From positions 1-56,692 of the IMG/VR virus record IMGVR_UViG_3300020595_000045: a stretch of 56,692 nucleotides of DNA; one strand, 5' to 3'. A model generated the notes under the pieces. That model did no database searches. It was not told the DNA's origin and saw nothing but the letters and a program-made list of their open reading frames with translations. Both the position numbers and the translations under genes were made by a program. Positions within the stretch are counted from its first letter, which is position 1. Every line of letters begins with the position of its first letter. Source of the DNA: a virus (lineage: Duplodnaviria > Caudoviricetes). Shown in pieces: positions 25,232-47,534 of the stretch.

Positions 25232-25585
25232 CTAGTATTTATATTTCCACATCACGGGTGTAGTGTCTCGATCATCGACGTGGACAAAGCCCTGCGCCAC
25301 GCCCACCCCCTTAAAATCCAACTGCAATGCTTTCTCTACTAGAATCCGTCGTTGTACACCGCCTGACACGGCCAGATCCGCAGCAATTCCGCGACTATGG
25401 GTGCCCGGCGTCGCCTTGGTTTTCTCAATTGAATGACCCTCTGGGCATCTGAAACCTGACGTTACATACAGGGGGAATCCAACGGCCTCTCTGAGCAGGT
25501 CTAGGCGCTTCAAAAACTCCATGTCCATCTCGTTGCGCCCGGTTTCTTGGCAGTCAAAATCACTAACTTCAAAATATTTAAGCAT
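25232..25585 (-). CDS. Endolysin, peptidase M15 family
   Basis: F.C, SGFRC, H..G.AAD, FVHVD.R zinc-peptidase motifs. Confidence 0.85.
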   Translation of the reverse strand: MLKYFEVSDFDCQETGRNEMDMEFLKRLDLLREAVGFPLYVTSGFRCPEGHSIEKTKATPGTHSRGIAADLAVSGGVQRRILVEKALQLDFKGVGVAQGFVHVDDRDTTPVMWKYKY

Positions 25586-25588
25586 TAT

Positions 25589-25870
25589 TTAACCTCTCAT
25601 TAGATACGCTATAAAGCCCACTAAACCTGCCCAAGCTGTAGCGACCATAGCTGTTCCTGTCCTAGCGACCAAAGTGTTACTGGCGGTAGAGACCTCTATC
25701 TCTTCAATTTTCTTTTCGTTTTCATCAAGGCGCAGTTCGTGCCGTTTAAGGCGAGCATCCGTTCCAACAAGCTTTTCTTCTACTCGAGCAACATTCGTTA
25801 GCACTTCGGTCAACTTGTCGATCTTTACTTCTAGCCGATCAAAGCGCCTGTTTGTTTCGGGGTCGGTCAT
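25589..25870 (-). CDS. Coiled-coil protein with C-terminal TM (holin/antiholin-like lysis accessory)
   Basis: Start reassigned to MTDPET (ATGA overlap with the holin stop). Confidence 0.6.
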   Translation of the reverse strand: MTDPETNRRFDRLEVKIDKLTEVLTNVARVEEKLVGTDARLKRHELRLDENEKKIEEIEVSTASNTLVARTGTAMVATAWAGLVGFIAYLMRG

Positions 25871-26244
25871 TTGCGCATTCCCATAAGTTTTGACGCGCCT
25901 TTGATTCCGAAGGAACTTGAGATCGCGATAAATAATAAATATTGATACCACTCAGGTAAGTCATTCAAAGTGGCGAACGCTAGTTGCACGCGCTCAACAA
26001 CGGACATATCGTTTGCAATAATTGCGTAACCCACCATGAATATTGGTATAGCTAATATTATAGTCCAAAACTCGTCTTTCCACGAGGAAGCAGACGCATC
26101 GACCATTTTTGATTCCCAGTCTGCGTCGTTCTGAATGACGTTCATTTTTGCTTCGTGCTTAGCCTGTTTTTCTTCGGCTCTGTTAGCCAGGAAAGTTTTG
26201 CCAATATCTGCCACAGGCCCAAGCAATGCTGTAAATATACTCAT
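25867..26244 (-). CDS. Holin (3-TM, GTA-holin-like)
   Basis: SSWKDEF followed by a TM, LPEWYQY.L...SFG; upstream of the endolysin. Confidence 0.7.
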   Translation of the reverse strand: MSIFTALLGPVADIGKTFLANRAEEKQAKHEAKMNVIQNDADWESKMVDASASSWKDEFWTIILAIPIFMVGYAIIANDMSVVERVQLAFATLNDLPEWYQYLLFIAISSSFGIKGASKLMGMRK

Positions 26245-32200: not shown

Positions 32201-32201
32201 C
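26241..32201 (-). CDS. Giant internal virion / ejection protein (polyvalent-protein-like, HExxH zincin motif)
   Basis: 1986 aa; Gly/Ala-rich N-terminus; AHEMGH...FEEWYAD; RFALIWQLKSF C-terminal region. Confidence 0.75.
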   Translation of the reverse strand: MANILGSDPIANLTQGGPARDPIQALVKAELSGATSAINTQTELSEVGPLAPKNLTDAFVKGVRSGAESLGADLEYFGAAVDAIQGDDVELADSIENARIRDEFAGIPMAGMDTFGEFLEKESSFYDFLEQVASGTGQIAPSLVSTVAGAGVGSVAMVLGKQALTAGSRAAAKNIIKDSVLAVTRKKASKEQRDIAQAAYEATREAHVVSRNRYLRRETMKKGGLIGAGVSEFAPLAGGNVSEALESGRELDRGQALRAMTVAAPQAAIGLYGEVGLLKLIGSAASKKSAGPSSVMGRLATAVGSGFVKGGAIEGGTELVQEEIAIRNRMDMDDTFTDAEANLRRLNAGFVGFFGGGSVGGAGRGLNQGLQELGGVNLIGGAASVVERASEMSDTIKEFMARNQASADVADAAPNQTTRESERDINAQLNAMTDPSSSKEAVWISGTEPDATYTANPNKIKKVTINGQTAFMSFVPGRGTIISTSSDVVANVIKDQASDAVLATALGYSSVKTETDDAVVRVYDKDGGIVSEQTFSPAELIPAMKAAEAAKPDGGRVEFMNVEEALADRARRAEPDVKFMEDDDGTPIEQDQNTNEQTGDQEFEPEVRTHEFNSRGETKSSYAAIEGENDFDGVQEARDAYVEMVGEDIDWSTPFYARMSKSMLETAVNLQKVNNDEVVTVAVNADGSYRIDIESTPDTQKIRMRDGKGNEESVARSEFIRRSIAKAKKAVQRFRTINIKGPGDEKATAVNPIDLMNAGRRLVEADTGSFSGAGQTQSARDGLIAMLAELQMRGYEVDIQGVPISEILANLSNPKIDLPPSIANLTVAFDSGGKPIKLGFLLKPYVPGAPKVSLLDEIVDQDGNTRLVPEEDAREARQDSDPSEPGDIPTNSARTADGIPLTDINIQDLRNVDSTQNRPKGSAPTTGPARKPKSKIETTSSVTFPFGEVNALVASFVRRAARRLKLKDPIAVLGLKGADAKAREVLASYITNKSSALGKIAMRKLMGTKDSRGINLGDPRAVGEFLIQLQKDGLLNETIGGHVARVGNATIIGDSIVRRALYEAFLPMTNSVSATKKLVFIFQDSLNKGQSRKGFSVKIGQATVLMVNDLHNTNEAALAMVVAHEMGHSLFREEIDGIRANPALYQRMLDAFTRDRQKARDEGSPVQQWEQVGFEEWYADQVAAWVKKDALSDKKGAGNALDSHFKRVVQRFKNLWKEVSSHQIFRRTDKLAPEFKKYMDDVSKARRSNRETITVDLKDADGNVVGSTSAMGALGETDSTPDTPDTPDTPDDGGNGNNDNSRPIPNEPSWEQKAIVEAIRKQIERQSGAEARAAAWRKKLEQWKKQFSENNPSAMKILGILRTADGLLRQVAGNELADLFYIRSNSKSGMGFVQARQLARDEWRAGLYKVLGTDWTTDEVQAAFKEAQGRTPTAELESPKAKAIREYLEKMHKEYVTPSNTNIGFRENYFPTLLSLPEIANDPDAFVDLIMQYEPDAKRADVLKTVQRLVKYQQVIDSDQDVPSDRDAFDPAAAVEAKIELTKNIPPDVLLELGFVQQPEIALMSYIDNITKRVEWNRVTRDASGKDLLGPLLDDLTKNNRATAEATINAYLGNVTHLSPAFRKANSYLGTLNLVTLLPFAVFASIPDFAGSIVQTKEFNGFGMAIKEMISQIQDREAAKRLANDIGVVMPEAAANAWMSQADSDMLDPTARQVTDKFFQYTGLSYLTTLSREFSSGMAKRFLIEHANNPSKRSDRYLEQLGVTYDQVRRWQESGFSFEGADGEAVKGALARFVESSVLRPNAAERPVWASDPRFALIWQLKSFIYAFNKVILQGIGREVGQRILNGEGIMPAMAPLLIITMAAFMPLAALGLELREYAKVGLSYALPGIDGSLKYLRSDHMDYGTYFQELFGRSGLDGPLGLLTMAQRSERWGGSGIATLLGPTAELADKALGIGPIDALGKRMDSPQDQAGVILAAGAIARTLL
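28330..28365. repeat. 4 x 9-bp tandem repeat TCAGGTGTR (encodes TPD repeats)
   Basis: tcaggtgtg tcaggtgta tcaggtgta tcaggtgtg. Confidence 0.9.
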
Positions 32202-37801: not shown

Positions 37802-38134
37802 TTATTTCCTATATCGTTTTTTTATGTTTGCGCGCGCTGTGTTGTTTCTGCCAGACGGCGCCTGTTTCTTAACCGCAACTGGTTTTTTCTTAGGTGTCGC
37901 GATGGCGAAAGCTTTAGGTTTAGCTTTAGGTTTAGCTTTAGTTGCTACACGCTTTACAGGAGTACCTGTAATAACGGTTTTTTCTGTCTTTCTTGAGCCG
38001 GGCTTACCGACGATGCGTTGGCCTAAACGAGTTGACTTTTCAAAACGTACGCTGCCTTCAGCAACAGGTTTTTTTGCGGCGGCCCTTTTCTTAGCGTCGG
38101 CGCGAGCTTTCTTGATTCGTTTCATTGCAGGCAT
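37802..38134 (-). CDS. Lys/Ala/Arg-rich basic protein (histone-H1-tail-like)
   Basis: KAKPKAKPKA repeats; almost no acidic residues. Confidence 0.65.
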   Translation of the reverse strand: MPAMKRIKKARADAKKRAAAKKPVAEGSVRFEKSTRLGQRIVGKPGSRKTEKTVITGTPVKRVATKAKPKAKPKAFAIATPKKKPVAVKKQAPSGRNNTARANIKKRYRK

Positions 38135-38151
38135 AACAGACCCTTTAAAGT

Positions 38152-38175
38152 AAAAGCCCCCTCCTAAGAGGGGGC
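38152..38175 (-). terminator. Intrinsic terminator after the major capsid gene
   Basis: Minus strand GCCCCCTC-ttag-GAGGGGGC-TTTT. Confidence 0.8.
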
Positions 38176-38186
38176 GATTGTCTTAC

Positions 38187-39332
38187 TTACTGTGCGGTAT
38201 CTAGACAGATCACACCGAAGTCCTGTACGTTCCCAGTGATATCACTGTTGTACTTAGGCTTGCGGAGACCAAAGATCTTGCCAATAGAAATACCAGACTG
38301 GTTGCCATAGTCGAAAGTATCTTCGACCATTTCTGGCAGACCGATGTCAGCCATAGCCAGAGCCTGAGCACCACAGAACAGAGCACGTCCACCAACGACA
38401 TTGGCAGCAGCACCCCACTTGTAGCCAGCTGCGCCAGCGTTAGATGAAGAACCAGTAGTAGCGCCAGAAGTGTTAAACACATGACGGAACTCGTGGATCA
38501 TCACGCCATCAACCATCAGGCTAGAAGAACCGGCGAACAAGCTGTTAGAAGCGCCACGTACACCAGCGTTACGAACGTTAGCGATGAAGTCATCGTCGAG
38601 CTTGAGGTCAGCCATCTGTGAAGGAGTAACAAACATGTGGAAAGTTTCCTGGTTACCAGCACCACGAATACCACGGATATATTGATCCTTAGCATAGGCC
38701 TTCAGGTTAACAATGTGCTTGTACTTCAGCTTATCACCAGATGCCAGAGCAGTAGTGTCACCCGCAACAATGTCGTCGCCATCTACGCGGCGGTGACGTG
38801 CAGCAGTAGGAGCAGAAACATCTGAAGCGAACTCAAGGTCAACTAACTCATGGCCAGTAGTACTAGAAGTGGTACGCAGACCGCCGTTGTTTTTGTGAGT
38901 GTATGCAACACCAGACAATGACAAGAATGCCAACTGGTCGCAACGGTCAGCGATTGCGTAAGCAAGTGCGTCGCGTGATTGTTCACGGAAGTTAACAACA
39001 GTCTTCTGGTCGGTCATACGGCCAGCGATGCGGTTAGCGAAACGCAGCTGATCCAGCTCGATGCTGATGTCATACGCGCGGAGGGCTTCTTCGTTGCCTT
39101 CCAGAGTGTTGTCACCAGTGATACCGTCGCCAGTCATGTCAGCAAGCAAAGTGATGTTAGCTTTGGTGCCTTTAGCGTTTTTAGTAAGTTCAGTTACGCG
39201 CTGTACCATTGCGTTTGAACCAGAACCAGCGAACTGGTTGATGAAAGATTGGTTGCGCGCTACTTTCCAAAAGTCGCGGCTCCAAGCTTGGAGTTGGTCG
39301 CCTGATAGCGTACCGAAATTTGTTAAAGCCAT
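38187..39332 (-). CDS. Major capsid protein (DUF4043-like)
   Basis: G.GITGD.TLEGNEE.L...I..DQLR.A, RM..QKT...R; strong AGGAG RBS; followed by a terminator. Confidence 0.85.
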   Translation of the reverse strand: MALTNFGTLSGDQLQAWSRDFWKVARNQSFINQFAGSGSNAMVQRVTELTKNAKGTKANITLLADMTGDGITGDNTLEGNEEALRAYDISIELDQLRFANRIAGRMTDQKTVVNFREQSRDALAYAIADRCDQLAFLSLSGVAYTHKNNGGLRTTSSTTGHELVDLEFASDVSAPTAARHRRVDGDDIVAGDTTALASGDKLKYKHIVNLKAYAKDQYIRGIRGAGNQETFHMFVTPSQMADLKLDDDFIANVRNAGVRGASNSLFAGSSSLMVDGVMIHEFRHVFNTSGATTGSSSNAGAAGYKWGAAANVVGGRALFCGAQALAMADIGLPEMVEDTFDYGNQSGISIGKIFGLRKPKYNSDITGNVQDFGVICLDTAQ

Positions 39333-39556
39333 GATGGGCTCCTAATTAATTGGGTTAAATAATATTTGTGGCACACGCCACTTACTCAGCCGACTTTTTA
39401 GGAGCGGCTAATCCGTATTCCCGTATCGTGGGACAACGAACTAGCGCTTATTAACGAGGAGCGACCTCGACAGGTTTAACGCCTTGTGTAGGCGGAGGGG
39501 TACGTTTTTTACGGCTACGGGCCGACCAGTTATCGTACTGATAGACGTAACATTCA
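39333..39556 (-). ncRNA. Candidate structured 5' leader of the capsid mRNA
   Basis: About 7 short GC-rich hairpins in about 220 nt of non-coding DNA; two ACGATA loops. Confidence 0.5.
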
Positions 39557-39584
39557 TATTAGTACAGCTAATATAAAAGCGCAA
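39556..39584 (-). promoter_or_regulatory. Capsid promoter with overlapping 17-bp operator
   Basis: Minus strand TTGCGC-N17-TAATAT; operator TATTAG-tacag-CTAATA at 39557-39573. Confidence 0.7.
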
Positions 39585-39587
39585 TAA

Positions 39588-40064
39588 CTATTTTAGAGGG
39601 TTAGATAGATAGTCTAGGCCTTCCCAGAGATCGTCGATTTCCCTGGTCACAAGTTTGCTTTTCGCCTCAATATCTCTGATACCCTCAGCAAGTATTTTAG
39701 ACTCGGCAACAGTAGCTTTCATGGTCTCAATCGCCTTATCTAGCTCATTTACTTGGTTTTTAATTTCAAGTAAATCCTTCTGTTGTTCCATGATAGTCTT
39801 GAGGTTTACTCCTAACTCAGCAAGTTTACTTTTAAGTTGACTTACATCATTGTCGGTAAGCTGCTGTTGCATAAGCCCAATAGATTCTTCTAGCGGTTTA
39901 ATATCTGGTATTTCTACGGCCTCTACCGCCGTTAATCGACCGTATAGCGAACTAGCAGTCCAAACACCGCCCCCTAAAGTGGTCGCTAAACTCAATAAAA
40001 TCGCAATATATACCCCTTTAAATGACGTATTTCCGATCTTAAGTTCTGTATCTTCTAAACTCAT
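39588..40064 (-). CDS. Membrane-anchored coiled-coil protein
   Basis: TM GVYIAILLSLATTLGGGVW followed by a long heptad region; start reassigned to MSLEDT (TAATG coupling). Confidence 0.75.
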   Translation of the reverse strand: MSLEDTELKIGNTSFKGVYIAILLSLATTLGGGVWTASSLYGRLTAVEAVEIPDIKPLEESIGLMQQQLTDNDVSQLKSKLAELGVNLKTIMEQQKDLLEIKNQVNELDKAIETMKATVAESKILAEGIRDIEAKSKLVTREIDDLWEGLDYLSNPLK

Positions 40065-40897
40065 TAGCAGTTTTCCTCTGTCATAAAGCACCTGTAACTA
40101 TCAGAGGTAGGCCCGTTTAGGTAGTATTCAGATTGCGCCCCGATAGTCAAAATATCGGCCTCAGTCGCGTACAAGTTTATTCCGAACGCGTCTTGCCCGT
40201 TTAGGAATACAGCGGAGGCACTGTTAGTAGTGTCATACCCCATGTAGACCCATTGCTGAGCAGCATCGTATTGCAGGGAAGAGTTGTCCGCGGTGGTGTT
40301 CGCTGTTTCGAGACCAGTCTGTAAGAAATCAAGTGCGTCACTATTAGCGGCAACGGCTATGAAAGCTGATGCGGTATTAGCATGAGTCTCAATGTCATCA
40401 AGACTTTGGTTGTAGGTATCGACATCTTGCTGTGTGATTTGAAGAGCCTCGCTGTTTGTCACAACGTATTCCTGCAAGGCTTCTTGATCAGCTGGACTGG
40501 TCGCCGTGGAGGCCATCTCACTGACCTCAACTACGGTAACCATGTCAGCGACTACAGCAGTGAAAGTTTCAACAGCCTGGTCCATAAGGTCTAACTCATT
40601 AGTCGCAGCATCTTGGAGGCGCGTTTCAACTGAGCCGTATGGTTGGTAGCTACCTAGATTGGTTAAGGCTTGATTGTAAGCTTGTAACTGTAGGTCACTA
40701 ATGTGTGCTGTAGAGGAAAGACTGCCGTCACTAAGACCCGTGCCACTGTTAGCGAACCCAATAGCCGTCCCAGTAAATTTGACGCCTCGATCTATTTGGC
40801 CGACTAGGGCCGCGGATGTGTTTATAAGATCATCTAGCTGGTTCGCTTGAGCTGCGGAACTTATCACTAACAGAAATGTTATCAATTGTTTCTTCAT
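40064..40897 (-). CDS. Secreted acidic helical protein
   Basis: Signal peptide MKKQLITFLLVISSAAQA; C-terminal Cys pair. Confidence 0.75.
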   Translation of the reverse strand: MKKQLITFLLVISSAAQANQLDDLINTSAALVGQIDRGVKFTGTAIGFANSGTGLSDGSLSSTAHISDLQLQAYNQALTNLGSYQPYGSVETRLQDAATNELDLMDQAVETFTAVVADMVTVVEVSEMASTATSPADQEALQEYVVTNSEALQITQQDVDTYNQSLDDIETHANTASAFIAVAANSDALDFLQTGLETANTTADNSSLQYDAAQQWVYMGYDTTNSASAVFLNGQDAFGINLYATEADILTIGAQSEYYLNGPTSDSYRCFMTEENC

Positions 40898-41486
40898 CAG
40901 ATTCGACACCTATACCAAGTACTGAGTTGTACCAGAGCTGAGTGTCGGTAAGCTTCTTACCTATATCCCCATACTCTGGTATATATAAAGTTGGGTTGCT
41001 CTTCATAAGAAGAAACGCACGTTTCCCAACAACTAGCCTGCCTTGTTTCTGTATCGGGCAGGGCGTTCCTGATAAAAACATCGATTTCCATACGATCTCG
41101 TCCTCGCACATCCTGGCTATTGCTGCAACTTTCATACCCAAGTCACTAAGGGTTTTAGCATCCCGTCTTCGGTTACACTCTTCATCTAACTTATAGCCGC
41201 CTCTAGTCCATCCTAAGACGTTTGTCTGGATACTAGACCCATTGCCCTTGAGGCAATTCTCAAGGCCGTTAGACATGTACGACGGGGCTATAGCTGACGG
41301 TGGGGGCATCCCCTTAGAAGAGCCCGCTCCGTTGTACGTATTAGACACAGATCTATCTTCAGAGACGTTGTTACTACTAACGGTACTGTCGATGTTACTT
41401 GTGTTTAGGGAGCCTTCTTGCTCGTTATTATTGTCGTTAGCCAGACTAGACGATGCCAGTAAAAGCACGCAGAAATATCTATACAT
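40830..41486 (-). CDS. Secreted Cys-containing protein (PPPSAIAP motif)
   Basis: Signal peptide MYRYFCVLLLASSSLA; PPPSAIAP...C...DEEC.R...L..LGMKVAA..RMC...GTPCP. Confidence 0.75.
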   Translation of the reverse strand: MYRYFCVLLLASSSLANDNNNEQEGSLNTSNIDSTVSSNNVSEDRSVSNTYNGAGSSKGMPPPSAIAPSYMSNGLENCLKGNGSSIQTNVLGWTRGGYKLDEECNRRRDAKTLSDLGMKVAAIARMCEDEIVWKSMFLSGTPCPIQKQGRLVVGKRAFLLMKSNPTLYIPEYGDIGKKLTDTQLWYNSVLGIGVESDEETIDNISVSDKFRSSSEPAR

Positions 41487-41516
41487 ATCATCTGAACCTG
41501 CTTGTCTTTTTAGCCA

Positions 41517-41744
41517 TTACACGGTTACCTCAAGGTCAGTTTCGATCCAGACTTTGGCCCCACATGAGAGGGGCTTATCCGGACTGTAGACGACAGTAGC
41601 AACAACTTCTCCCTCTGCTGTGACAATCTCCGCCCTATTGACCTTGCGGTTAGCTTTGTAGTCTTTAACAGTGAGTACGGGCTCGTCTGCGCCTTTGTTG
41701 TTAGCACGTATGTTGTGTTGATTAACGTGGATACGGGTCTTCAT
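41517..41744 (-). CDS. Small conserved-type phage protein
   Basis: IHVNQH.IR.N...PV.TVK...VYSPDKPLSCGA.VWIET. Confidence 0.7.
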   Translation of the reverse strand: MKTRIHVNQHNIRANNKGADEPVLTVKDYKANRKVNRAEIVTAEGEVVATVVYSPDKPLSCGAKVWIETDLEVTV

Positions 41745-41747
41745 ACC

Positions 41748-42038
41748 TCACCACTTTTCACGATTTGCCCAATAGGCCGCGCTCATTTTGCCCTTTGCAA
41801 TGTTCTTAGCGTGTCGCGCCTTGAAGCTAGCGCGCTTCTTACGCATCTTGTCGCCTTCGCCGGCTTTCGGTTTGCCTGCGGTAGACGCACCTTGCTCACC
41901 AAATCGGATGGTTTTGATCTTGTCACCTTCTTTAGCCACAACAATGTGTGATTTCTTGGGGTGACTAGGGGTCCTTTTCGGCTTGTTAAAGCCCGAGACT
42001 CCAGCTCGGGCTAATCGTGGGTCTTTTTTAACTGGCAT
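41748..42038 (-). CDS. Small highly basic protein (DUF5754-like)
   Basis: IRFG.QG...R.SF.ARH...SAAYWA...W. Confidence 0.65.
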   Translation of the reverse strand: MPVKKDPRLARAGVSGFNKPKRTPSHPKKSHIVVAKEGDKIKTIRFGEQGASTAGKPKAGEGDKMRKKRASFKARHAKNIAKGKMSAAYWANREKW

Positions 42039-42049
42039 TTGTCACCTCT

Positions 42050-43060
42050 TTATAAAATATCACCCCGAAGACGTTTTAGCGTTGCTTCAGGTAGAGCATC
42101 GAACTCATCTTCAGTCATTGTGGACAGGTCGAAGGTCTTCTCACCATGCTGTGAGGAGCTTTCGCCTGGAAGTTCTGGGGGTTGAGCCTCTGCCGCCTTC
42201 AATTTCTTGCTAACTTGCGCGCGCTTTTTGGCCAGTTCGTCCGTTTTTTTGGCTTTTCCGGCCAAACTTGGCTCGTTATTGGCCGGATCGTCCAGACCTA
42301 GGTCCGAGACAACGTACTTAACGGCTTTTTGGAGCGCATCTACTGCTTCATAGCCTTTCATTATGAAAGCGTCGCGCAGTTCAACCACTTCGTTGGTGGC
42401 TTCTTCGCTGAACGATTCTGAATCACGGCTAAATACTGGATAAGCCTCTTCCATAGCGTTAGCAGCCTGCTGAAGTGCAGTCATTTGGCGATCTTGGTTC
42501 ACCGTTTGACTCATTTCCTGGCGCATTTCGAACTCTAGCTCGCTTCTTTCGGCTTTTCTGATCTCTCTTCGGAGAGCAACCGCTTTTTCCGTCTCACCAT
42601 CCAGCACCATGTTTTGGTACTCAACTTCTTTCGCATCGAAATCGTACGATTCGGGCGCTTCCTCTGCTTTTTGGTTGGTGGCATTGATCTCATCTAACTG
42701 TTTCTGCAAGGCTTTCTGTTTAGCAAGAACTTCGTCCAAACGTTTCTTAGGAACCATCGGGTTTTTTGCTGGCTTTTCTGCCACCTCTGGCTCTTCTTCT
42801 AGCTCGGCCTCTGGTTCTGTTTCTTCTTCTGTACTTTGTTCATCTTCAGAAACAATTTCCTCGGGTTCTTCGGCAGTTGGCTCCTCTTCGGTGTCCTCTG
42901 CCACAATTTCTTCTTCTTCAGCAACTTCTTCCGGCTCCTCTTCGGGGGTCTCGAAGCTCAAATCAAGCTGAGGCGCGTCATCGTCTTCGAACTTGTCAGC
43001 TCCTGGCATTACATCAAACTGCATAGTTGTGTCTTCGTTTGTCTCGTCTTGCTTACTCAT
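42050..43060 (-). CDS. Capsid scaffolding protein
   Basis: Glu-rich N-terminus, VP..RL.EV coiled coil, C-terminal MTEDEFDAL; directly after the portal. Confidence 0.8.
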   Translation of the reverse strand: MSKQDETNEDTTMQFDVMPGADKFEDDDAPQLDLSFETPEEEPEEVAEEEEIVAEDTEEEPTAEEPEEIVSEDEQSTEEETEPEAELEEEPEVAEKPAKNPMVPKKRLDEVLAKQKALQKQLDEINATNQKAEEAPESYDFDAKEVEYQNMVLDGETEKAVALRREIRKAERSELEFEMRQEMSQTVNQDRQMTALQQAANAMEEAYPVFSRDSESFSEEATNEVVELRDAFIMKGYEAVDALQKAVKYVVSDLGLDDPANNEPSLAGKAKKTDELAKKRAQVSKKLKAAEAQPPELPGESSSQHGEKTFDLSTMTEDEFDALPEATLKRLRGDIL

Positions 43061-45175
43061 CTAAGAACTCCTGTCGTTCCGTTTAGTATTTTGAAAGGCG
43101 GCCGTTGCTAGTTTGGTGGCCGCCGAGGTTTGAGATTGGTTTTCACGTTGTGAGTTATTTAGATCGGCGAGTTCACGGCGCAAATCTAACTGTTCTTGGT
43201 TAATCTGAATCTTGGCTTGTAGTTCGGCCATACGTATTTGTGGATCGACTTCAGTTGCATCCTGTGCCTTCGCGATGTTCAGGGCGGCTTCGGAGGAAGT
43301 CTTCTTAACGTCTGCTTCTAGTTTCGCCATCTCGAGCTGGATCTGCTGCATCTGGATCTGCTGCTGCTGCGCTAGAGCTTCTGCCTGCTCTGGTGTTGGC
43401 GGCTCTTGCCCTGTCATCTGGCGAATTCTCGTAGCCAGTTCACCCTTACGTGCCAAGTGGCTGTATTCGATAATCGCGTCATCAGGCACAACGACGCCGG
43501 CCTGTCGTAGGCTTAGCGCTTCTGCGAACTGAACTTCATCGAAGCTATCTCTCGCTGGAGCCGTGGATACAATGACATCGTACTCACCCAGGGTGAGATC
43601 GTTGATGATGGTGCCTTCGGGAGTTTCCTGGTTTATGACCATAGGCTCACGGGGCTTCATTGGGTCGTCTTCGTTAGTAACTTGGATAACACGCTCTTCG
43701 GTGTAGAACGTCTGGATCAGATTTAGTACGTGCTCGGCAAGGTATTGACGGGCTTTACGTAAGTTATCCAGTGGCACTTGGATCATAATCGCGCCGCGGT
43801 TCTGCTTCGCCTGAATTGCGATACCTGATACTTCTGCGCTGTCTGTACCTAACATGCTGTCGTTAACGCCTGAAATAGTCTTAATGTTCATGGCTGCTTT
43901 CTGAGCAATGCGGTCAAGGCCAGTAGGTATTTGATTAGCCTGTATTTTTGATGGGGGGTTAGTACCTCGAGCGTACTCAAGTACCAAGCCTGTCGCCGCG
44001 CCATGTTCTTCTAGGTCATCGGCTGTCATGCCAACTAATGAACCTGACTCGACCATCCAACCACTATTAGCTGTAGTATTAACGATGTGCAGCTCTTGGC
44101 TAGCGATTTTATTCAACTGCTCCTGCGGAGAGAGAAGGTTACGAATAGCGCCAAACGGGCGGCCGCGTCTGAAGTAGCAAAAGAAAGGTACGATGGTGAA
44201 CTGGTTGTATGGAGACCAGTCATCGTGGAGTACGACTTGGTCACAAGTAACGGTCCAGCGAATTTTGCGAATGACCTTACTAATCAGGTTCAGAGTGTAT
44301 TGCTTTGCAAACTTCTTGTTTTTACTTTCAGACCATGCGTCTGGTGCTTGGCGCTGATCGCCTGTGTTTGGGTCGACGAAGAAAAACGCACGGCTGAGCT
44401 TCTTGTGCTGGCGCTCGACGACGCGCAGTGCTTTCACATTACGGTATTCCTCGTCACCTGGTACGCCTGCACCGAAGTGATCGTCGTTATTTTCTGTATC
44501 GCCGAACCGAGTCTCCTGATACTCCACTGAGTCAGGGCCGAAACTCATGCCATTCTCTGCTACGAATAGTAAACGCTCGGCTTTCTTCTTACCGTAGACT
44601 TCCTCGATCTCGTCAAGGGTCATCCACTTCGTTTCGAACACCTCGTTCCACGTCTTTGGGTCGGAGTCCTTAGCGTCTGGATCGATAAGTATGTCTAGCG
44701 GGTCTTTGGCCGTAATTCGGATTTCGCCTTCGACGTGGTCTGAGAAGTCCATACGTACATCGAAGTATCCTCGGCCATCCATAATGAGGCCGTCAGAGAA
44801 TACCTGCTGCTCCACCCAATCCAACTTGTTGTTATCGGATATCTGCATGTACAGCTTGTTGAGTGTATGAGCCACTTCTTCATCGCCACCTCTTCGAGGT
44901 TTGAATTGGATATCTGCGCGGCGGGTGGATTGCTCACCTAGGATTGTATTAATAGTAGGAAGAATAGTATTAATAGTAAGAGCAGGGCGGCCTTCGTTTT
45001 CTAATGCAGACTCATCATCAGCGTCCCACTGCTCGCCTTGGTAATAGTCGTCGCACTTCTGAGCCATGTATACGTACTCGAGGTGCCCATTATCTCGTGC
45101 GCGCTCATATCGTGCCCACTGCGTGCGAGTGATCTCTTCTTCTTTAGCGGGATTTATCTTCGTTGCTTTAGCCAT
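43061..45175 (-). CDS. Portal protein (P22-like length)
   Basis: YY.GEQW...L...GRP.LTIN, G.IRNL.SPQ..LNK, SG.AIQ..Q, YDV.V, Gln-rich barrel. Confidence 0.9.
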   Translation of the reverse strand: MAKATKINPAKEEEITRTQWARYERARDNGHLEYVYMAQKCDDYYQGEQWDADDESALENEGRPALTINTILPTINTILGEQSTRRADIQFKPRRGGDEEVAHTLNKLYMQISDNNKLDWVEQQVFSDGLIMDGRGYFDVRMDFSDHVEGEIRITAKDPLDILIDPDAKDSDPKTWNEVFETKWMTLDEIEEVYGKKKAERLLFVAENGMSFGPDSVEYQETRFGDTENNDDHFGAGVPGDEEYRNVKALRVVERQHKKLSRAFFFVDPNTGDQRQAPDAWSESKNKKFAKQYTLNLISKVIRKIRWTVTCDQVVLHDDWSPYNQFTIVPFFCYFRRGRPFGAIRNLLSPQEQLNKIASQELHIVNTTANSGWMVESGSLVGMTADDLEEHGAATGLVLEYARGTNPPSKIQANQIPTGLDRIAQKAAMNIKTISGVNDSMLGTDSAEVSGIAIQAKQNRGAIMIQVPLDNLRKARQYLAEHVLNLIQTFYTEERVIQVTNEDDPMKPREPMVINQETPEGTIINDLTLGEYDVIVSTAPARDSFDEVQFAEALSLRQAGVVVPDDAIIEYSHLARKGELATRIRQMTGQEPPTPEQAEALAQQQQIQMQQIQLEMAKLEADVKKTSSEAALNIAKAQDATEVDPQIRMAELQAKIQINQEQLDLRRELADLNNSQRENQSQTSAATKLATAAFQNTKRNDRSS

Positions 45176-45177
45176 TG

Positions 45178-46821
45178 TTATGCGCTCATTGCCGATTTGT
45201 TGCGTTCGCCTTTAAGTAATCCAGGTAGCTTGTCTCGCCATGTAGGTACGTGTTCGACCCTGTCCACAAAAGTGCTGAACTCAGTCATCATCAAACCTAT
45301 CCAAGCGAGGGCATCAACCTGATCGTCGTGCGTGCCATTTGGAAAGCGCAGTAGCTCCGCTATCAAGGGGCCCGTAAATTGTTCGTCTTTAGGGAAAAAC
45401 ACCATCCCCTGTTGCATCCGACCTTGGATTGCTCTGGCTCGCGCCTCTTTATCTCTGCGGCCAGTCTTCAAGTCTTTAAAGTACGCTTCGTATAACCCAC
45501 GTTCGCGGACACGCTTCTCGAGGAACGGTCCGAGGGCCATCTCGATGTGCCCCTTCTCGATACCGATAATCGATGGCTTCCATAGCTCGTACATATCGAG
45601 TATCTGTTCAACTAGTTCAAAACCGTCGAACCTGCCTCGCACCATGTCCATAATAAATAACTGATCGTGCTCATCGACTCCCACAACAATACCTACCGTG
45701 TAGTCATTGCGGTCGTTCTTACCAATCGCCAAATCCCACGCGCAGTAGAACTTCATGCGGTCTTCGTCGATATCTTCGCGATCGTAATAAGCGATCATGT
45801 CTCGGGTGAAGTAGTCACCGTCATCAGCTACTGGATTCTGCTGATACAGGGCAGACCAGTCTCGTGGTCCGACTGCTTTCTCAATTCTTGCTAGAGCATT
45901 CTCGTCGTAGCGCTCTTTGTGTAGGGCTTCACCCTGACTACGGAACTCTTCGTCGACCTCAGCTCTTGCTGGGTAATTAACAACTTCCCACTGCTCACCG
46001 TTGTCTGCTGCGGCTTTAAGTAACCTGCCTGCAAGGTCATCATCGTGCCAGCGAGTAAGGATAACCAGCACGCCGCCGCCAGGTGCGAGACGGGTATACG
46101 CTGTCGAGGTGTACCAGTCCCAGGCGCTTTCTCTGGAGTTCGCGGATTCTGCGTCGTCCCTATTTTTGACGGGATCATCAATAACAAGGATATGAGCACC
46201 CTTACCAGTAATACCCCCACCAACACCGGCAGCGACATAGCCACCACCAGAAGTTGTAAGCCAAGCCTCAGCAGACTGAGACTGAGGATCAAGACGAGTT
46301 TTAAAAGCAGACTTAAACCCTTCCTCACGGAGGAGGCCACGAACCTTACGTGAGAACCCCATAGCGAGTGAACCAGAGTAAGAACAGCTGATGAACTCGT
46401 GTTCTGGGTTTCGCCCGAGGTGCCACGCCGGGAACGCCACCGATGCAAGTGTACTTTTACCGTGCCGCGGAGGCATGAATAGCATAAGTCTAGGAGACTT
46501 CTTTTCGCTGACATCTCTCGAAAAATCCTCTAACCGCTTACATATATCTTTATGTACCCAACCTGCCTGGTAGTCGGGATTAAACCGTTCAACGAACGGA
46601 AGCAACTTGCGTCTAGTCAGGAACCGTAGAGCGAGTTCCGCGCGCGCCTTATCCTCTACTGTTTCTTGGATCGGGGCTTCTGGATCGGGGGTCGCGGGCT
46701 GTGGTTCTTGTTCAGCGATGTCTGCTTTACAGTAGACGCAGAGACGGTCGTCCCCCGAGTACAATGTCTCGGGGTGCGAGTTCTTGCAGCGAATACACTC
46801 GATCTTTGCGACATCACTCAT
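45178..46821 (-). CDS. terL: Terminase large subunit with N-terminal CxxC..CxxC extension
   Basis: MPPRHGKS, ITGKGA...IDDPVK, TRWH.DDL, WDLA, HDDQVDA. Confidence 0.95.
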   Translation of the reverse strand: MSDVAKIECIRCKNSHPETLYSGDDRLCVYCKADIAEQEPQPATPDPEAPIQETVEDKARAELALRFLTRRKLLPFVERFNPDYQAGWVHKDICKRLEDFSRDVSEKKSPRLMLFMPPRHGKSTLASVAFPAWHLGRNPEHEFISCSYSGSLAMGFSRKVRGLLREEGFKSAFKTRLDPQSQSAEAWLTTSGGGYVAAGVGGGITGKGAHILVIDDPVKNRDDAESANSRESAWDWYTSTAYTRLAPGGGVLVILTRWHDDDLAGRLLKAAADNGEQWEVVNYPARAEVDEEFRSQGEALHKERYDENALARIEKAVGPRDWSALYQQNPVADDGDYFTRDMIAYYDREDIDEDRMKFYCAWDLAIGKNDRNDYTVGIVVGVDEHDQLFIMDMVRGRFDGFELVEQILDMYELWKPSIIGIEKGHIEMALGPFLEKRVRERGLYEAYFKDLKTGRRDKEARARAIQGRMQQGMVFFPKDEQFTGPLIAELLRFPNGTHDDQVDALAWIGLMMTEFSTFVDRVEHVPTWRDKLPGLLKGERNKSAMSA

Positions 46822-47003: not shown

Positions 47004-47534
47004 TTAGTCGCTCTTAGGTTCGAGGTAGTCGAGGTCTTTACCCGCGATCTTCAACAAGTCTTCGTCGCTCATGCGTTCAAGCTGCTTAGTACCGTTGATG
47101 TTGATATTGATCTGAGGTTTATCTTCTTCTTTGGCCAAGCCGTGTAGCTTGACCAGGGAATCTGTGGTGTTCTTCATCTCAGTGGCGTTTGCCGAAGAGT
47201 TGTACGCTTCCATGTACATCATGTGCGCATGTTGATTGCTGAACTTCACCTCTTCGCGCATCTCCTGACGGAAATACTCTATTGCTTGCTGAACTTCGGG
47301 GACTTTTACTGCCTGGTAGGCAGACTGGGGGGACGAGTACCCCGCACCGCGGCCCGCGGCAGCTGTTGTCATGCCGGAACTAATGAGCGAGACCAGCTTT
47401 TCTTGCTGCATGGTTAGCGATCCGCGGCTTATGCCCATGTACGGCATATGCGATTGGAATTCGGTGTGCTCACTGACTAAGTCAGTGGACGATTGTTCCT
47501 GCTGGGGTGCTAGATCCATAGAACTCTTGGTCAT
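47004..47534 (-). CDS. terS: Terminase small subunit
   Basis: LT.QQEK.V.L..SG.T..AA...AGYS HTH; C-terminal LERMSDEDL; upstream of terL. Confidence 0.75.
   Translation of the reverse strand: MTKSSMDLAPQQEQSSTDLVSEHTEFQSHMPYMGISRGSLTMQQEKLVSLISSGMTTAAAGRGAGYSSPQSAYQAVKVPEVQQAIEYFRQEMREEVKFSNQHAHMMYMEAYNSSANATEMKNTTDSLVKLHGLAKEEDKPQINININGTKQLERMSDEDLLKIAGKDLDYLEPKSD

What the first reader, a model, noticed from the sequence alone, without database searches (positions are those of the whole stretch)
39588..41486. Three-gene secreted/membrane cassette inserted between scaffold and capsid genes
Seen: three overlapping or coupled ORFs: a signal-peptide Cys-containing protein (PPPSAIAP...GMKVAA..RMC), a signal-peptide acidic helical protein, and a TM-anchored coiled-coil protein. 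Exported proteins cannot be ordinary head components, yet they lie in the late head operon. I recall similar PPSAIAP proteins as hypotheticals in marine phages (unverified). Inference: a trans-envelope complex of unknown function, such as a non-canonical spanin substitute, receptor masking/superinfection exclusion, or lysis-timing control. A strong candidate for an undescribed protein system.
Basis: partly seen in the sequence, partly recalled or inferred. Interest (0 to 1): 0.75.

Follow-up and report, generated by a model that had tools for sequence, protein, structure and literature searches.

The report
Exported three-protein phage lysis-linked module
Three tightly coupled genes for two secreted proteins and one membrane-anchored protein form an undescribed module, widespread in marine phages and usually found beside their cell-bursting genes, that may break the outer membrane without the usual lipoprotein.

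Summary
On the minus strand lie P1 (40830-41486, signal peptide, four conserved Cys), P2 (40064-40897, signal peptide, pI 4.05, helical) and P3 (39588-40064, one TM segment plus a helical tail ending NPLK). P1/P2 overlap by 68 nt and P2/P3 share TAATG.

The trio is a fixed unit. In 80 related viral contigs, P2 follows P1 in 76 of 76 with room, and P3 follows in 71 of 71. In 55 of 80 it lies within 2 kb of holin-type, small-TM or endolysin genes (M15 peptidase or GH24 lysozyme). About 17-19 of 80 share the window's scaffold-to-capsid position.

The same architecture stands beside the endolysin or holin-like genes in SAR11 phages (pelagiphages) and roseophages. The window has its own holin/endolysin cluster (25232-26244) but no credible lipoprotein gene, so no canonical spanin.

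No Pfam, NCBIfam or function-annotated PHROG family matches, and no solved structure does.

Best reading (about 0.5): a lipid-anchor-free, three-part equivalent of spanins for the outer-membrane step of lysis. This rests on gene context; function, binding and P3 topology are unproven.

An earlier follow-up in this scan (e1-3258395) reached the same reading on other DNA.

The parts
40830..41486 (-). P1: secreted protein, 218 aa (phrog_20531, unknown function)
   Evidence: ORF. PHROG hit 2.4e-10. 1447 homologous clusters at E<=0.001 and 650 representatives. AF2 mean pLDDT 77.1.
41436..41486 (-). P1 predicted Sec signal peptide (aa 1-17, cleavage after SLA inferred by eye)
   Evidence: Sequence. 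A signal-like N-terminus is kept in 113 of 120 close homologues. No SignalP run.
40902..41309 (-). P1 conserved core (aa 60-195): PPPSAIAP motif, beta-hairpin and helices, four Cys
   Evidence: In 76 aligned sequences C104 is invariant, and A65, P68, C78, C127, C143 and P144 are kept in 90% or more. Blocks of aa 101-190 mostly have pLDDT >=90. No PDB match: best E 4.1.
40064..40897 (-). P2: secreted acidic helical protein, 277 aa from M5 (listed ORF runs to 40909)
   Evidence: C270 and C277 are kept in 90% or more of 30 aligned sequences. AF2 pLDDT 70.8, long helices.
40830..40897 (-). 68-nt out-of-frame overlap of P1's 3' end with P2's signal-peptide coding region
   Evidence: An overlap of 56-110 nt is seen in 57 of 57 relatives.
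39588..40064 (-). P3: single-pass membrane protein, 158 aa, with helical tail ending ...DDLWEGLDYLSNPLK
   Evidence: 1477 homologous clusters. W147, D151 and P156 are invariant, and F15-K16-G17 and W35...Y41 are invariant or nearly so, in 32 sequences.
39945..40016 (-). P3 transmembrane segment (about aa 17-40, VYIAILLSLATTLGGGVWTASSL)
   Evidence: KD19 maximum 1.59 at aa 17. Highly conserved.
40062..40066 (-). TAATG: P2 stop overlapping P3 start
   Evidence: The junction gap is -26 to +2 nt in 57 relatives.
25867..26244 (-). Holin-like membrane protein of the window's separate lysis cluster (phrog_2524)
   Evidence: PHROG 5.9e-34, annotated unknown function. Hydrophobic segments seen. Homologues lie directly after P3 in many relatives. 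Divergent counterparts in L017 and L058 hit PF11351 GTA_holin_3TM at 3e-16 and 4e-20. The window's own copy had no Pfam hit.
25589..25951 (-). Helical protein with C-terminal TM segment (phrog_689 'holin', weak); probable start at M28 (25870) is my inference
   Evidence: PHROG 5.9e-05. Sequence.
25232..25585 (-). Endolysin, peptidase M15
   Evidence: phrog_894 at 4.6e-25. PF08291 at 4.1e-08, above cutoff.
38187..39332 (-). Major capsid protein (downstream flank)
   Evidence: PF13252 at 9.3e-47 and phrog_334 at 4.1e-85. Terminator-like hairpin after it at 38156-38175.
42050..43060 (-). Putative scaffold (upstream flank; assigned by position and acidic composition only)
   Evidence: No Pfam or PHROG hit. 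Lies directly after the portal gene.

Best explanation
The three genes encode a late-expressed envelope module that belongs functionally to the phage's lysis system. Most likely it carries out the last step, disruption of the outer membrane, in place of spanins.

Proposed course:
- P1 and P2 are exported by Sec and lose their signal peptides. Their conserved Cys form disulfides in the periplasm.
- P3 sits in the inner membrane with its helical tail, ending in the invariant W..D....P(L) motif, probably in the periplasm.
- The three accumulate harmlessly while the murein is intact.
- The holin-type proteins (25589-26244) then trigger, and the M15 endolysin (25232-25585) destroys the murein.
- The module is freed to act on the outer membrane.

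Outer-membrane contact would come from the secreted proteins rather than from a lipid anchor. The candidates are P1's disulfide-bonded domain with its N/S/T-rich stalk, and the middle protein, whose family changes between phage groups.

Shown here: gene linkage, export-type signals at sequence level, absence of a lipoprotein gene, and residence in lysis cassettes in relatives. Inferred: export itself, topology, assembly, timing and any action on the outer membrane.
For: 1. Invariant unit. In 80 IMG/VR loci found through P1 (55-68% identity), P2 is adjacent in 76 of 76 with room and P3 in 71 of 71. Overlapping junctions are conserved.

2. Lysis neighbourhood. 30 of 80 loci have the trio within 1.6 kb of homologues of the window's own holin-like or endolysin genes. 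With more queries, 55 of 80 have a holin-type, small-TM or endolysin neighbour within 2 kb.
- L053: a 68-aa TM protein, P1, P2, P3, the holin-like gene and the M15 endolysin are packed head to tail.
- L043: the trio is followed by a GH24 lysozyme (PF00959, 2.3e-49).
- L017 and L058: the trio is followed by GTA_holin_3TM proteins.
Association with two unrelated endolysin types is what a lysis-cassette component would show.

3. Deep conservation of the architecture.
- Pelagibacter phage HTVC023P: gp45 (P1-like), gp46 (461 aa, signal peptide, acidic), gp48 (TM plus helix ending NPLAQ), then gp49 peptidase M15.
- Uncultured T7-like phage MedDCM-OCT-S28-C10: a small TM protein, a multi-TM protein, P1-like, a 461-aa secreted protein, and a 74-aa TM protein ending NPLR.
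- Roseophages CRP-207 and CRP-810 carry all three.
- In a second P1 subfamily, 36 of 56 loci with >=2.5 kb downstream have a TM...NPx-ending ORF 1.3-2.6 kb after P1.

4. A missing function. The window has holin-type genes and an endolysin. An all-frame lipobox scan gave only 4 hits there, none in a plausible gene position. The same scan finds Rz1 and Bor in lambda. It gives 5 hits on the trio strand against 18 on the opposite strand across the 80 loci (823 kb).

5. Periplasmic hallmarks. The Cys of P1 (4) and P2 (2) are conserved and P3 has none.

6. Literature. Kongari et al. 2018 (PMC6139136, section 15 read) report about 13% of phages of Gram-negative hosts without identifiable spanins. They state that proteins with other anchors could play spanin roles.
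Against: - All functional evidence is guilt by association. No experiment and no homology to any lysis protein supports it.
- In this window the trio is not beside the lysis genes. It lies 13 kb away in the head operon, as in about 17-19 of 80 relatives.
- No lipid anchor or other recognisable outer-membrane anchor is present.
- P3's topology is undecided. The charge-bias test gave 65 equal, 38 C-positive and 21 N-positive of 124, and the lambda Rz control was also uninformative.
- P3's N-terminus and TM segment are more conserved than its tail. That is unlike i-spanins as I recall them, and suggests an intramembrane partner such as a holin.
- Gene order (secreted, secreted, TM) is the reverse of the i-spanin then o-spanin rule (PMC12894885, passages).
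- P3's coiled coil is unconfirmed.
- P1 occurs without an obvious P3 in Ralstonia phage RSP15.
- Marine hosts may not need outer-membrane disruption at all, a possibility raised for cyanophages in PMC6139136.
Confidence: 0.5

Rival explanations
1. Lysis-timing control. P3 is a membrane regulator or an extra holin-class protein (one TM segment plus a large soluble domain, like T4 holin T, or a Mu gp25-type releasin). P1 and P2 are periplasmic modulators, comparable to the secreted T4 antiholin RI. Together they set when the holin fires or when the endolysin is released, and do not attack the outer membrane.
For: - The same lysis-cassette neighbourhood applies.
- P3's N-terminus and TM segment are its most conserved parts, which suggests a specific intramembrane partner.
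- Three pre-flagged P3 homologues reach PF10805/DUF2730, the Mu releasin family, at 23.4-25.8 bits against a cutoff of 24.9 (family described in PMC9239132, passages).
- T4 RI is a secreted periplasmic antiholin (PMC8385771, search listing and abstract only).
Against: - The DUF2730 match covers only profile positions 40-89 of 102, the helical part and not the TM segment. It is absent at E<=0.001 in 32 of 32 aligned P3 sequences, the window's included.
- The window and its relatives already carry one or two holin-type genes.
- This reading leaves the outer-membrane step unassigned.
- No Pfam hit to any holin or antiholin family.
Confidence: 0.2
2. Superinfection exclusion or receptor masking. 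The exported proteins modify or block envelope receptors, or the DNA-entry route. This would stop secondary infection, or stop progeny being lost on cell debris.
For: - Envelope location of all three products.
- The middle gene changes family between phage groups: 277-aa acidic helical here, and 461-aa proteins in HTVC023P and MedDCM-S28-C10, one annotated 'carbohydrate binding'. That pattern would fit host-specific surface recognition.
Against: - The trio lies in late head or lysis operons with no promoter-like site directly upstream. From my own knowledge, exclusion genes are usually early or lysogeny-expressed.
- Recurrent tight packing with holin and endolysin genes is not expected for exclusion genes.
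- No PADLOC family matches beyond weak helical-repeat hits (E 2e-4 to 8e-3).
Confidence: 0.12
3. An auxiliary envelope function unrelated to lysis, such as adhesion, aggregation or uptake, like the curli (T8SS) modules reported in HTVC023P-type pelagiphages.
For: - Pelagiphages do carry secreted auxiliary modules (PMC9599517, abstract and passages read).
- P1's mature N-terminus (QEGSLNT..STVSSNN..SNTYNGAG) loosely recalls Q/N/G/S-rich fibre repeats. This is my impression, not a test.
Against: - No Pfam hit to CsgG, CsgF or curlin repeats for any of the three proteins at E<=0.1.
- The described T8SS module has a different gene content: CsgF, CsgG, CsgA/B, HK, FecR and AC (PMC9599517).
- The trio is far more widespread, and is tied to lysis genes.
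Confidence: 0.06

Closest known systems
Two-component spanins (lambda Rz/Rz1 type)
   Same: - Late-expressed envelope proteins encoded with or near holin and endolysin.
- One component has an N-terminal TM segment and a helical soluble domain.
- Translationally coupled or overlapping genes.
- Cys-bearing, Pro-containing periplasmic partner.
- Present in genomes that otherwise lack an outer-membrane-disrupting function.
   Different: - No lipoprotein (no lipobox).
- Three genes rather than two.
- Order is secreted-secreted-TM rather than i-spanin then o-spanin.
- No sequence or profile similarity to any spanin PHROG or Pfam family.
- P3 has no Cys.
- P3's TM segment is strongly conserved.
Mu gp25 releasin (DUF2730, PF10805)
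   Same: - Small phage protein with an N-terminal TM segment and a helical tail, encoded near the endolysin.
- Borderline Pfam hits in a few P3 homologues.
   Different: - The match is limited to the helical part and is absent in 32 of 32 aligned P3 sequences.
[quoted passage not shown]
- Here the phage is not Mu-like, and P3 comes with two secreted partners.
T4 holin T / antiholin RI pair
   Same: A single-TM protein with a large soluble domain, plus secreted periplasmic protein(s), in a lysis context.
   Different: No detectable homology. Other holin-type genes are already present. Lysis inhibition is unknown in these phages.
Disruptin (phiKT gp28), the non-spanin outer-membrane disruptor
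   Same: It would fill the same gap in spanin-less phages.
   Different: As I recall it, and as cited in 10.1101/2024.01.23.576932, disruptin is one small cationic peptide. Here there are three larger acidic proteins with export signals.

Membership tests
Two-component spanin | o-spanin is an outer-membrane lipoprotein with a lipobox signal | tested here: not met
   P1 and P2 have SPase-I-type signals with no lipobox. 0 of 120 close P1 homologues pass the strict lipobox test. The all-frame scan of the window gave 4 implausible hits. The lambda control recovered Rz1 and Bor.
Two-component spanin | i-spanin is a type II (N-in/C-out) membrane protein with a periplasmic coiled-coil domain | tested here: inconclusive
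   A single N-terminal TM segment is present. The charge-bias topology test was uninformative, also for lambda Rz. The heptad test was not above shuffles.
Two-component spanin | o-spanin gene embedded in, overlapping or directly downstream of the i-spanin gene | tested here: not met
   The order is P1, P2, P3, with the TM protein last. No ORF of 40 aa or more on the same strand is embedded in P3.
Two-component spanin | Located in or near the lysis cassette | tested here: inconclusive
   Not met in the window (13 kb away). Met in 55 of 80 relatives within 2 kb.
Two-component spanin | Sequence or profile similarity to a known spanin family | tested here: not met
   Pfam, PHROGs and NCBIfam gave none.
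Two-component spanin | Required for outer-membrane disruption; complements Rz/Rz1 defects | not testable with these tools
   Needs a bench test.
DUF2730 / Mu gp25 releasin | Full-length profile match including the N-terminal TM segment | tested here: not met
   The window's P3 has no PF10805 hit at E<=0.1. 0 of 32 aligned sequences hit at E<=0.001. In 3 pre-flagged homologues the hit covers profile positions 40-89 of 102 at 23.4-25.8 bits.
DUF2730 / Mu gp25 releasin | N-out/C-in topology | tested here: inconclusive
DUF2730 / Mu gp25 releasin | [quoted passage not shown] | tested here: not met
   The window has a P22-type portal and a terminase, and no transposase was seen in the genes scanned. 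P3 is not downstream of the endolysin.
Curli / T8SS auxiliary module of pelagiphages | CsgG, CsgF and curlin-repeat proteins | tested here: not met
   No such Pfam hits for P1-P3.
phrog_20531 (P1 family, function unknown) | Profile match | tested here: met
   P1 at 2.4e-10. Distant members at 1e-12 to 8e-29.

The most novel reading that the evidence does not exclude
The trio is a third, lipid-anchor-free class of outer-membrane-disrupting lysis machinery. It would consist of an inner-membrane helical protein with a conserved C-terminal docking motif and two Sec-secreted partners, one with a new disulfide-bonded fold. It would be used by abundant marine phages (pelagiphages, roseophages and this group), and would explain how a large share of 'spanin-less' phages complete lysis.
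Probability: 0.4. Interest if true: 0.85.

Novelty: new variant of a known kind. Interest (0 to 1): 0.7.

Why it matters
How phages without spanins breach the outer membrane is an acknowledged open question. About 13% of the phages of Gram-negative hosts surveyed in PMC6139136 have no identifiable spanin.

This module offers a concrete and very widespread candidate:
- More than 1400 protein clusters each for P1 and P3.
- At least 598 viral-contig stretches for one further P1 subfamily.
- Carriers include phages of SAR11 and Roseobacter.

It can be tested directly by complementation. P1 also appears to have a fold with no solved relative.

Practical consequence: public annotations of P3 homologues as 'lysozyme' (CRP-810 gp51, CRP-207 gp73) and of a P1 homologue as 'OmpA family' (CRP-810 gp53) have no domain support here. 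They should not be propagated.

Tried and rejected
- Family searches. Pfam, PHROGs, NCBIfam and PADLOC gave no characterised family. Only phrog_20531 (unknown function) matched P1, and there were sub-threshold helical-repeat hits for P3 and P2.
- Structure searches. The P1 model (pLDDT 77.1) had best PDB E 4.1. In BFVD it matched only uncharacterised phage proteins. The P2 model (pLDDT 70.8) had best PDB E 0.69. Alpha-pore-forming toxin components AhlB and SmhB appeared at E 4.3 and 5.3, which is not significant and is not used.
- PDB profile searches. Nothing for P1. P2's best hit was a chemoreceptor at E 0.18. P3 gave caveolae-associated protein at 0.0064 and syntaxin at about 0.08, which I read as generic helical similarity.
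- ESM Atlas. P1's neighbours are all 'hypothetical', viral clusters. P2 gave no usable hit.
- Complex prediction on P1 core, mature P2 and the P3 tail (partner P3): verdict 'no answer', score 0.00. No evidence either way.
- P3 topology by flanking charge was inconclusive. The heptad test for a coiled coil was not above shuffles.
- DUF2730/releasin lead: rejected as membership.
- Curli/T8SS lead: rejected (PMC9599517 passages).
- Lipobox forms of P1. Three of 150 representatives passed my strict lipobox rule. In relatives of one of them (P0466), 4 of 80 loci passed, but all four carry the family's usual SPase-I site a few residues later (...AYA|ADS...LA|ADS). I regard these as chance Cys in the signal peptide. 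A scan with P0461 found no relative.
- Complete-genome lipobox scan of five carrier phages. The short hits were not checked against annotation, except one in CRP-810 (see Noticed in passing). HTVC115P had none.
- Expression. Of four metatranscriptome-labelled runs laid (contigs only), one true RNA-seq run held an exact 154-nt piece inside P1 (41142-41295) and an exact piece inside the capsid gene. Two runs labelled RNA but probably DNA held exact pieces in P1 and P2. DNA carry-over cannot be excluded, so I do not claim transcription.
- Papers. Searches for DUF2730; spanin with pelagiphage; spanin with signal peptide or 'lacking a lipobox'; and HTVC023P, CRP-207 or CRP-810 found no description of this module. 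The CRP-810 paper's text has no occurrence of OmpA, lysozyme, spanin or holin.
Full report
**What is there**

The window looks like a complete tailed-phage contig from seawater. It has terminase genes (47004-47534, 45178-46821), a P22-type portal (43061-45175, PF16510 7.3e-123), an acidic putative scaffold (42050-43060), two small conserved genes (41748-42038 phrog_7595; 41517-41744 phrog_8676), and a major capsid protein (38187-39332, PF13252 9.3e-47). All are on the minus strand.

- P1 (40830-41486, 218 aa) starts MYRYFCVLLLASSSLA|ND. An N/S/T-rich stretch follows that AF2 leaves disordered. From about aa 60 comes PPPSAIAP and a domain with Cys 78, 104, 127 and 143.
- P2 most likely starts at M5 (40897), giving 277 aa like most homologues. 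It starts MKKQLITFLLVISSAAQA|NQ, has pI 4.05 and ends C270...C277.
- P3 most likely starts at the ATG at 40064, giving 158 aa like nearly all homologues. It has one hydrophobic segment at about aa 17-40 and a charged tail ending DDLWEGLDYLSNPLK.

P1 and P2 overlap by 68 nt in different frames. The P2 stop and P3 start share TAATG. A terminator-like hairpin follows only the capsid gene (38156-38175), and no promoter-like site lies directly upstream of the trio. On sequence grounds the trio is part of the late head transcript.

**Are the export signals real?**

I could not run SignalP. The N-termini of homologues vary freely in sequence, yet they keep the pattern of basic residue, uncharged hydrophobic run and small-x-small site. 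This holds in 113 of 120 close P1 homologues and 112 of 120 close P2 homologues.

The Cys are conserved. In 76 diverse P1 sequences C104 is invariant, and C78, C127 and C143 are kept in 90% or more. In 30 P2 sequences C270 and C277 are kept in 90% or more. P3 has none. This fits two periplasmic proteins and one membrane protein.

The coiled-coil label for P3 rests only on sub-threshold hits to generic coiled-coil families. My heptad test did not beat shuffles (184 of 500).

**The trio is one unit**

A P1-based scan of IMG/VR returned 159 confirmed stretches, of which the best 80 loci were kept (55-68% identity).
- P2 follows P1 in 76 of 76 loci with at least 400 nt of room.
- P3 follows P2 in 71 of 71 loci with at least 1300 nt of room.
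- Where all junctions could be called (57 loci), P1/P2 overlap by 56-110 nt in 57 of 57. The P2/P3 gap is -26 to +2 nt.

The families are large: 1447 clusters for P1, 1477 for P3 and 338 for P2 at E<=0.001 among the candidates scored. An exhaustive search found 650 P1 representatives at 50% clustering. Atlas neighbours of P1 are viral 'hypothetical protein' clusters.

**Where the unit lives in other genomes**

This is the key result.
- With only the window's own lysis proteins as probes, 30 of 80 loci have the trio within 1.6 kb of a homologue of the holin-like gene (25867-26244) or the M15 endolysin (25232-25585). 19 of 80 share the window's scaffold/capsid context, and 31 had neither.
- I inspected 7 of those 31. 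Four had other lysis-type genes next to the trio. L043 has a small helix-plus-TM protein, a 157-aa TM protein and a GH24 lysozyme (PF00959, 2.3e-49). L017 and L058 have PF11351 GTA_holin_3TM proteins (3e-16, 4.3e-20). L060 has a similar protein by eye. In the other three (L024, L032, L073) no convincing same-strand genes followed, and I did not pursue them.
- Adding these proteins as probes, 55 of 80 loci have a holin-type, small-TM or endolysin neighbour within 2 kb and 25 have none. Of those 25, 17 are head-context loci like the window.
- The 'holin-type' and 'small TM' labels rest on PF11351 for two probes, on PHROG names, or on architecture only.
- In L053 six genes are packed without gaps: a 68-aa helix-plus-TM protein, P1, P2, P3, the holin-like protein and the M15 endolysin.

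**Deep conservation**

- Pelagibacter phage HTVC023P has gp45 (P1-like, signal peptide), gp46 (461 aa, signal peptide, acidic middle), a tiny gp47, gp48 (TM with GGG, helical, ending NPLAQ) and then gp49 peptidase M15.
- The T7-like uncultured phage MedDCM-OCT-S28-C10 has a 53-aa helix-plus-TM protein, a multi-TM protein, a P1-like protein, a 461-aa secreted protein and a 74-aa TM protein ending NPLR, just before the terminase.
- HTVC115P has a P1-like protein and, five genes on, a P3-like protein.
- Roseophages CRP-207 and CRP-810 and a freshwater-spring phage carry all three.
- In a second P1 subfamily (at least 598 stretches in IMG/VR), 36 of 56 loci with enough downstream sequence have a TM...NPx-ending ORF 1.3-2.6 kb after P1.
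- P1 and P3 are therefore the conserved ends of the module. The middle secreted protein changes family between phage groups.
- In Ralstonia phage RSP15 a P1-like protein stands without an obvious P3.

**What the window lacks**

Its lysis cluster (25232-26244) has a phrog_2524 membrane protein, a helical protein with a C-terminal TM segment (phrog_689 'holin', 5.9e-05) and an M15 endolysin. The two genes after the endolysin have no hydrophobic segment by eye.

An all-frame scan for lipoprotein signals found four hits. One is in a different frame inside the capsid gene. Two are antisense to long ORFs, and one lies in a stretch whose long ORFs run on the other strand.
- Control: the same scan recovers Rz1 and Bor in lambda with one false hit.
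- Relatives: in the 80 loci (823 kb) it gives 5 hits on the trio strand against 18 on the opposite strand, so nothing above background.

No canonical o-spanin or u-spanin is therefore detectable.

**What the proteins look like**

- P1 folds confidently from about aa 70 to 195: a beta-hairpin, three helices and two short hairpins, with blocks at pLDDT 77-97. It has no PDB neighbour (best E 4.1). In BFVD it matches only uncharacterised phage proteins.
- P2 is a bundle of long helices with a small sheet (pLDDT 70.8) and has no significant PDB neighbour.
- Profile searches of PDB sequences found nothing meaningful.
- No NCBIfam or PADLOC family fits.

**How it most likely works**

By elimination and by neighbourhood, I favour a role in the last step of lysis (about 0.5). 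P3 would be anchored in the inner membrane. P1 and P2 would be in the periplasm. The assembly would be restrained by murein until the endolysin acts, and would then destabilise or fuse the outer membrane. That is a functional equivalent of spanins without a lipid anchor. Kongari et al. (PMC6139136, section 15 read) explicitly left room for spanin roles played by proteins with other anchors.

Several points weigh against this reading:
- Everything rests on context.
- The gene order is unlike spanins.
- P3's topology is unresolved.
- P3's most conserved parts are its N-terminus and TM segment, which points to a membrane partner such as a holin.
- In this window the trio is not next to the lysis genes.

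For these reasons a lysis-timing role (antiholin- or releasin-like) keeps about 0.2. The DUF2730 lead (Mu releasin, PMC9239132 passages) does not survive as membership. The hits are borderline, confined to the helical part, and absent in 32 of 32 aligned P3 sequences. Exclusion or receptor masking (about 0.12) fits the variable middle protein but not the late, lysis-linked position. A curli-like auxiliary role (about 0.06) is not supported by any domain hit (PMC9599517 passages).

**Novelty**

Four literature searches found no description of this module. Supplements were closed.

The scan itself met the module before on other DNA. First-reader notes e1-6267267, e1-6280238 and e1-6286227 describe it. 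A follow-up report, e1-3258395, reached the same reading. I tested its core claims independently here.

I rate it a new variant of a known kind: a lysis-cassette envelope component filling the spanin slot. If the outer-membrane function is proven it would be a new class.

Noticed in passing
L094:8390-8650 (-), i.e. Roseobacter phage CRP-810 record positions 46390-46650: An unannotated 86-aa ORF fills the gap just upstream of the P1 homologue gp53. It has a credible lipoprotein signal (MRFIPIVAVSTLLSAC|G) and a miniature P1 core: 16 of 31 identical to P1 aa 99-129, and a phrog_20531 hit at E 0.0069. It may be a lipid-anchored, o-spanin-sized paralogue of P1. This is a single case.
   Followed up: partly
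window 39333-39587: A 255-nt non-coding spacer separates the P3 stop from the capsid start. Head-context relatives have a spacer of similar length (for example L007, 264 nt). Two contigs of a relative, in one RNA-seq-labelled run, cover 39400-39569 at word depth about 20. It may be a capsid mRNA leader or a small RNA.
   Followed up: no
L002:7315-7737 (CRP-810 gp51), L001:3292-3873 (CRP-207 gp73), L002:5929-6684 (CRP-810 gp53): Public annotations 'lysozyme', 'putative lysozyme' and 'OmpA family protein' sit on P3 and P1 homologues. These have no lysozyme or OmpA Pfam domain at E<=0.05.
   Followed up: yes
window 41488-41517 (-): A 9-codon ORF (MAKKTSRFR) starts at a TAATG overlapping the stop of the upstream gene (41517-41744). 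It ends 1 nt before P1's ATG, so it could relay translational coupling. Its conservation was not checked.
   Followed up: no
window 41748-42038 (-): A very basic 96-aa protein (phrog_7595, 3.7e-42) is 63-95% identical across relatives. It travels near the trio in both head-type and lysis-type contexts. Another first-reader note (e1-6321313) covers it.
   Followed up: no
window 26241-32201 (-): A 1986-aa protein just upstream of the lysis cluster contains an HEMGH zinc-peptidase-like motif and many hydrophobic stretches near its C-terminus. It may be an internal virion or ejection protein (seen only).
   Followed up: no
window 38100-43100: Near-identical DNA occurs in marine or seawater metagenome runs of at least 7 coded studies. 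Eleven runs hold half or more of the sampled words, and the best holder may be the source sample.
   Followed up: partly
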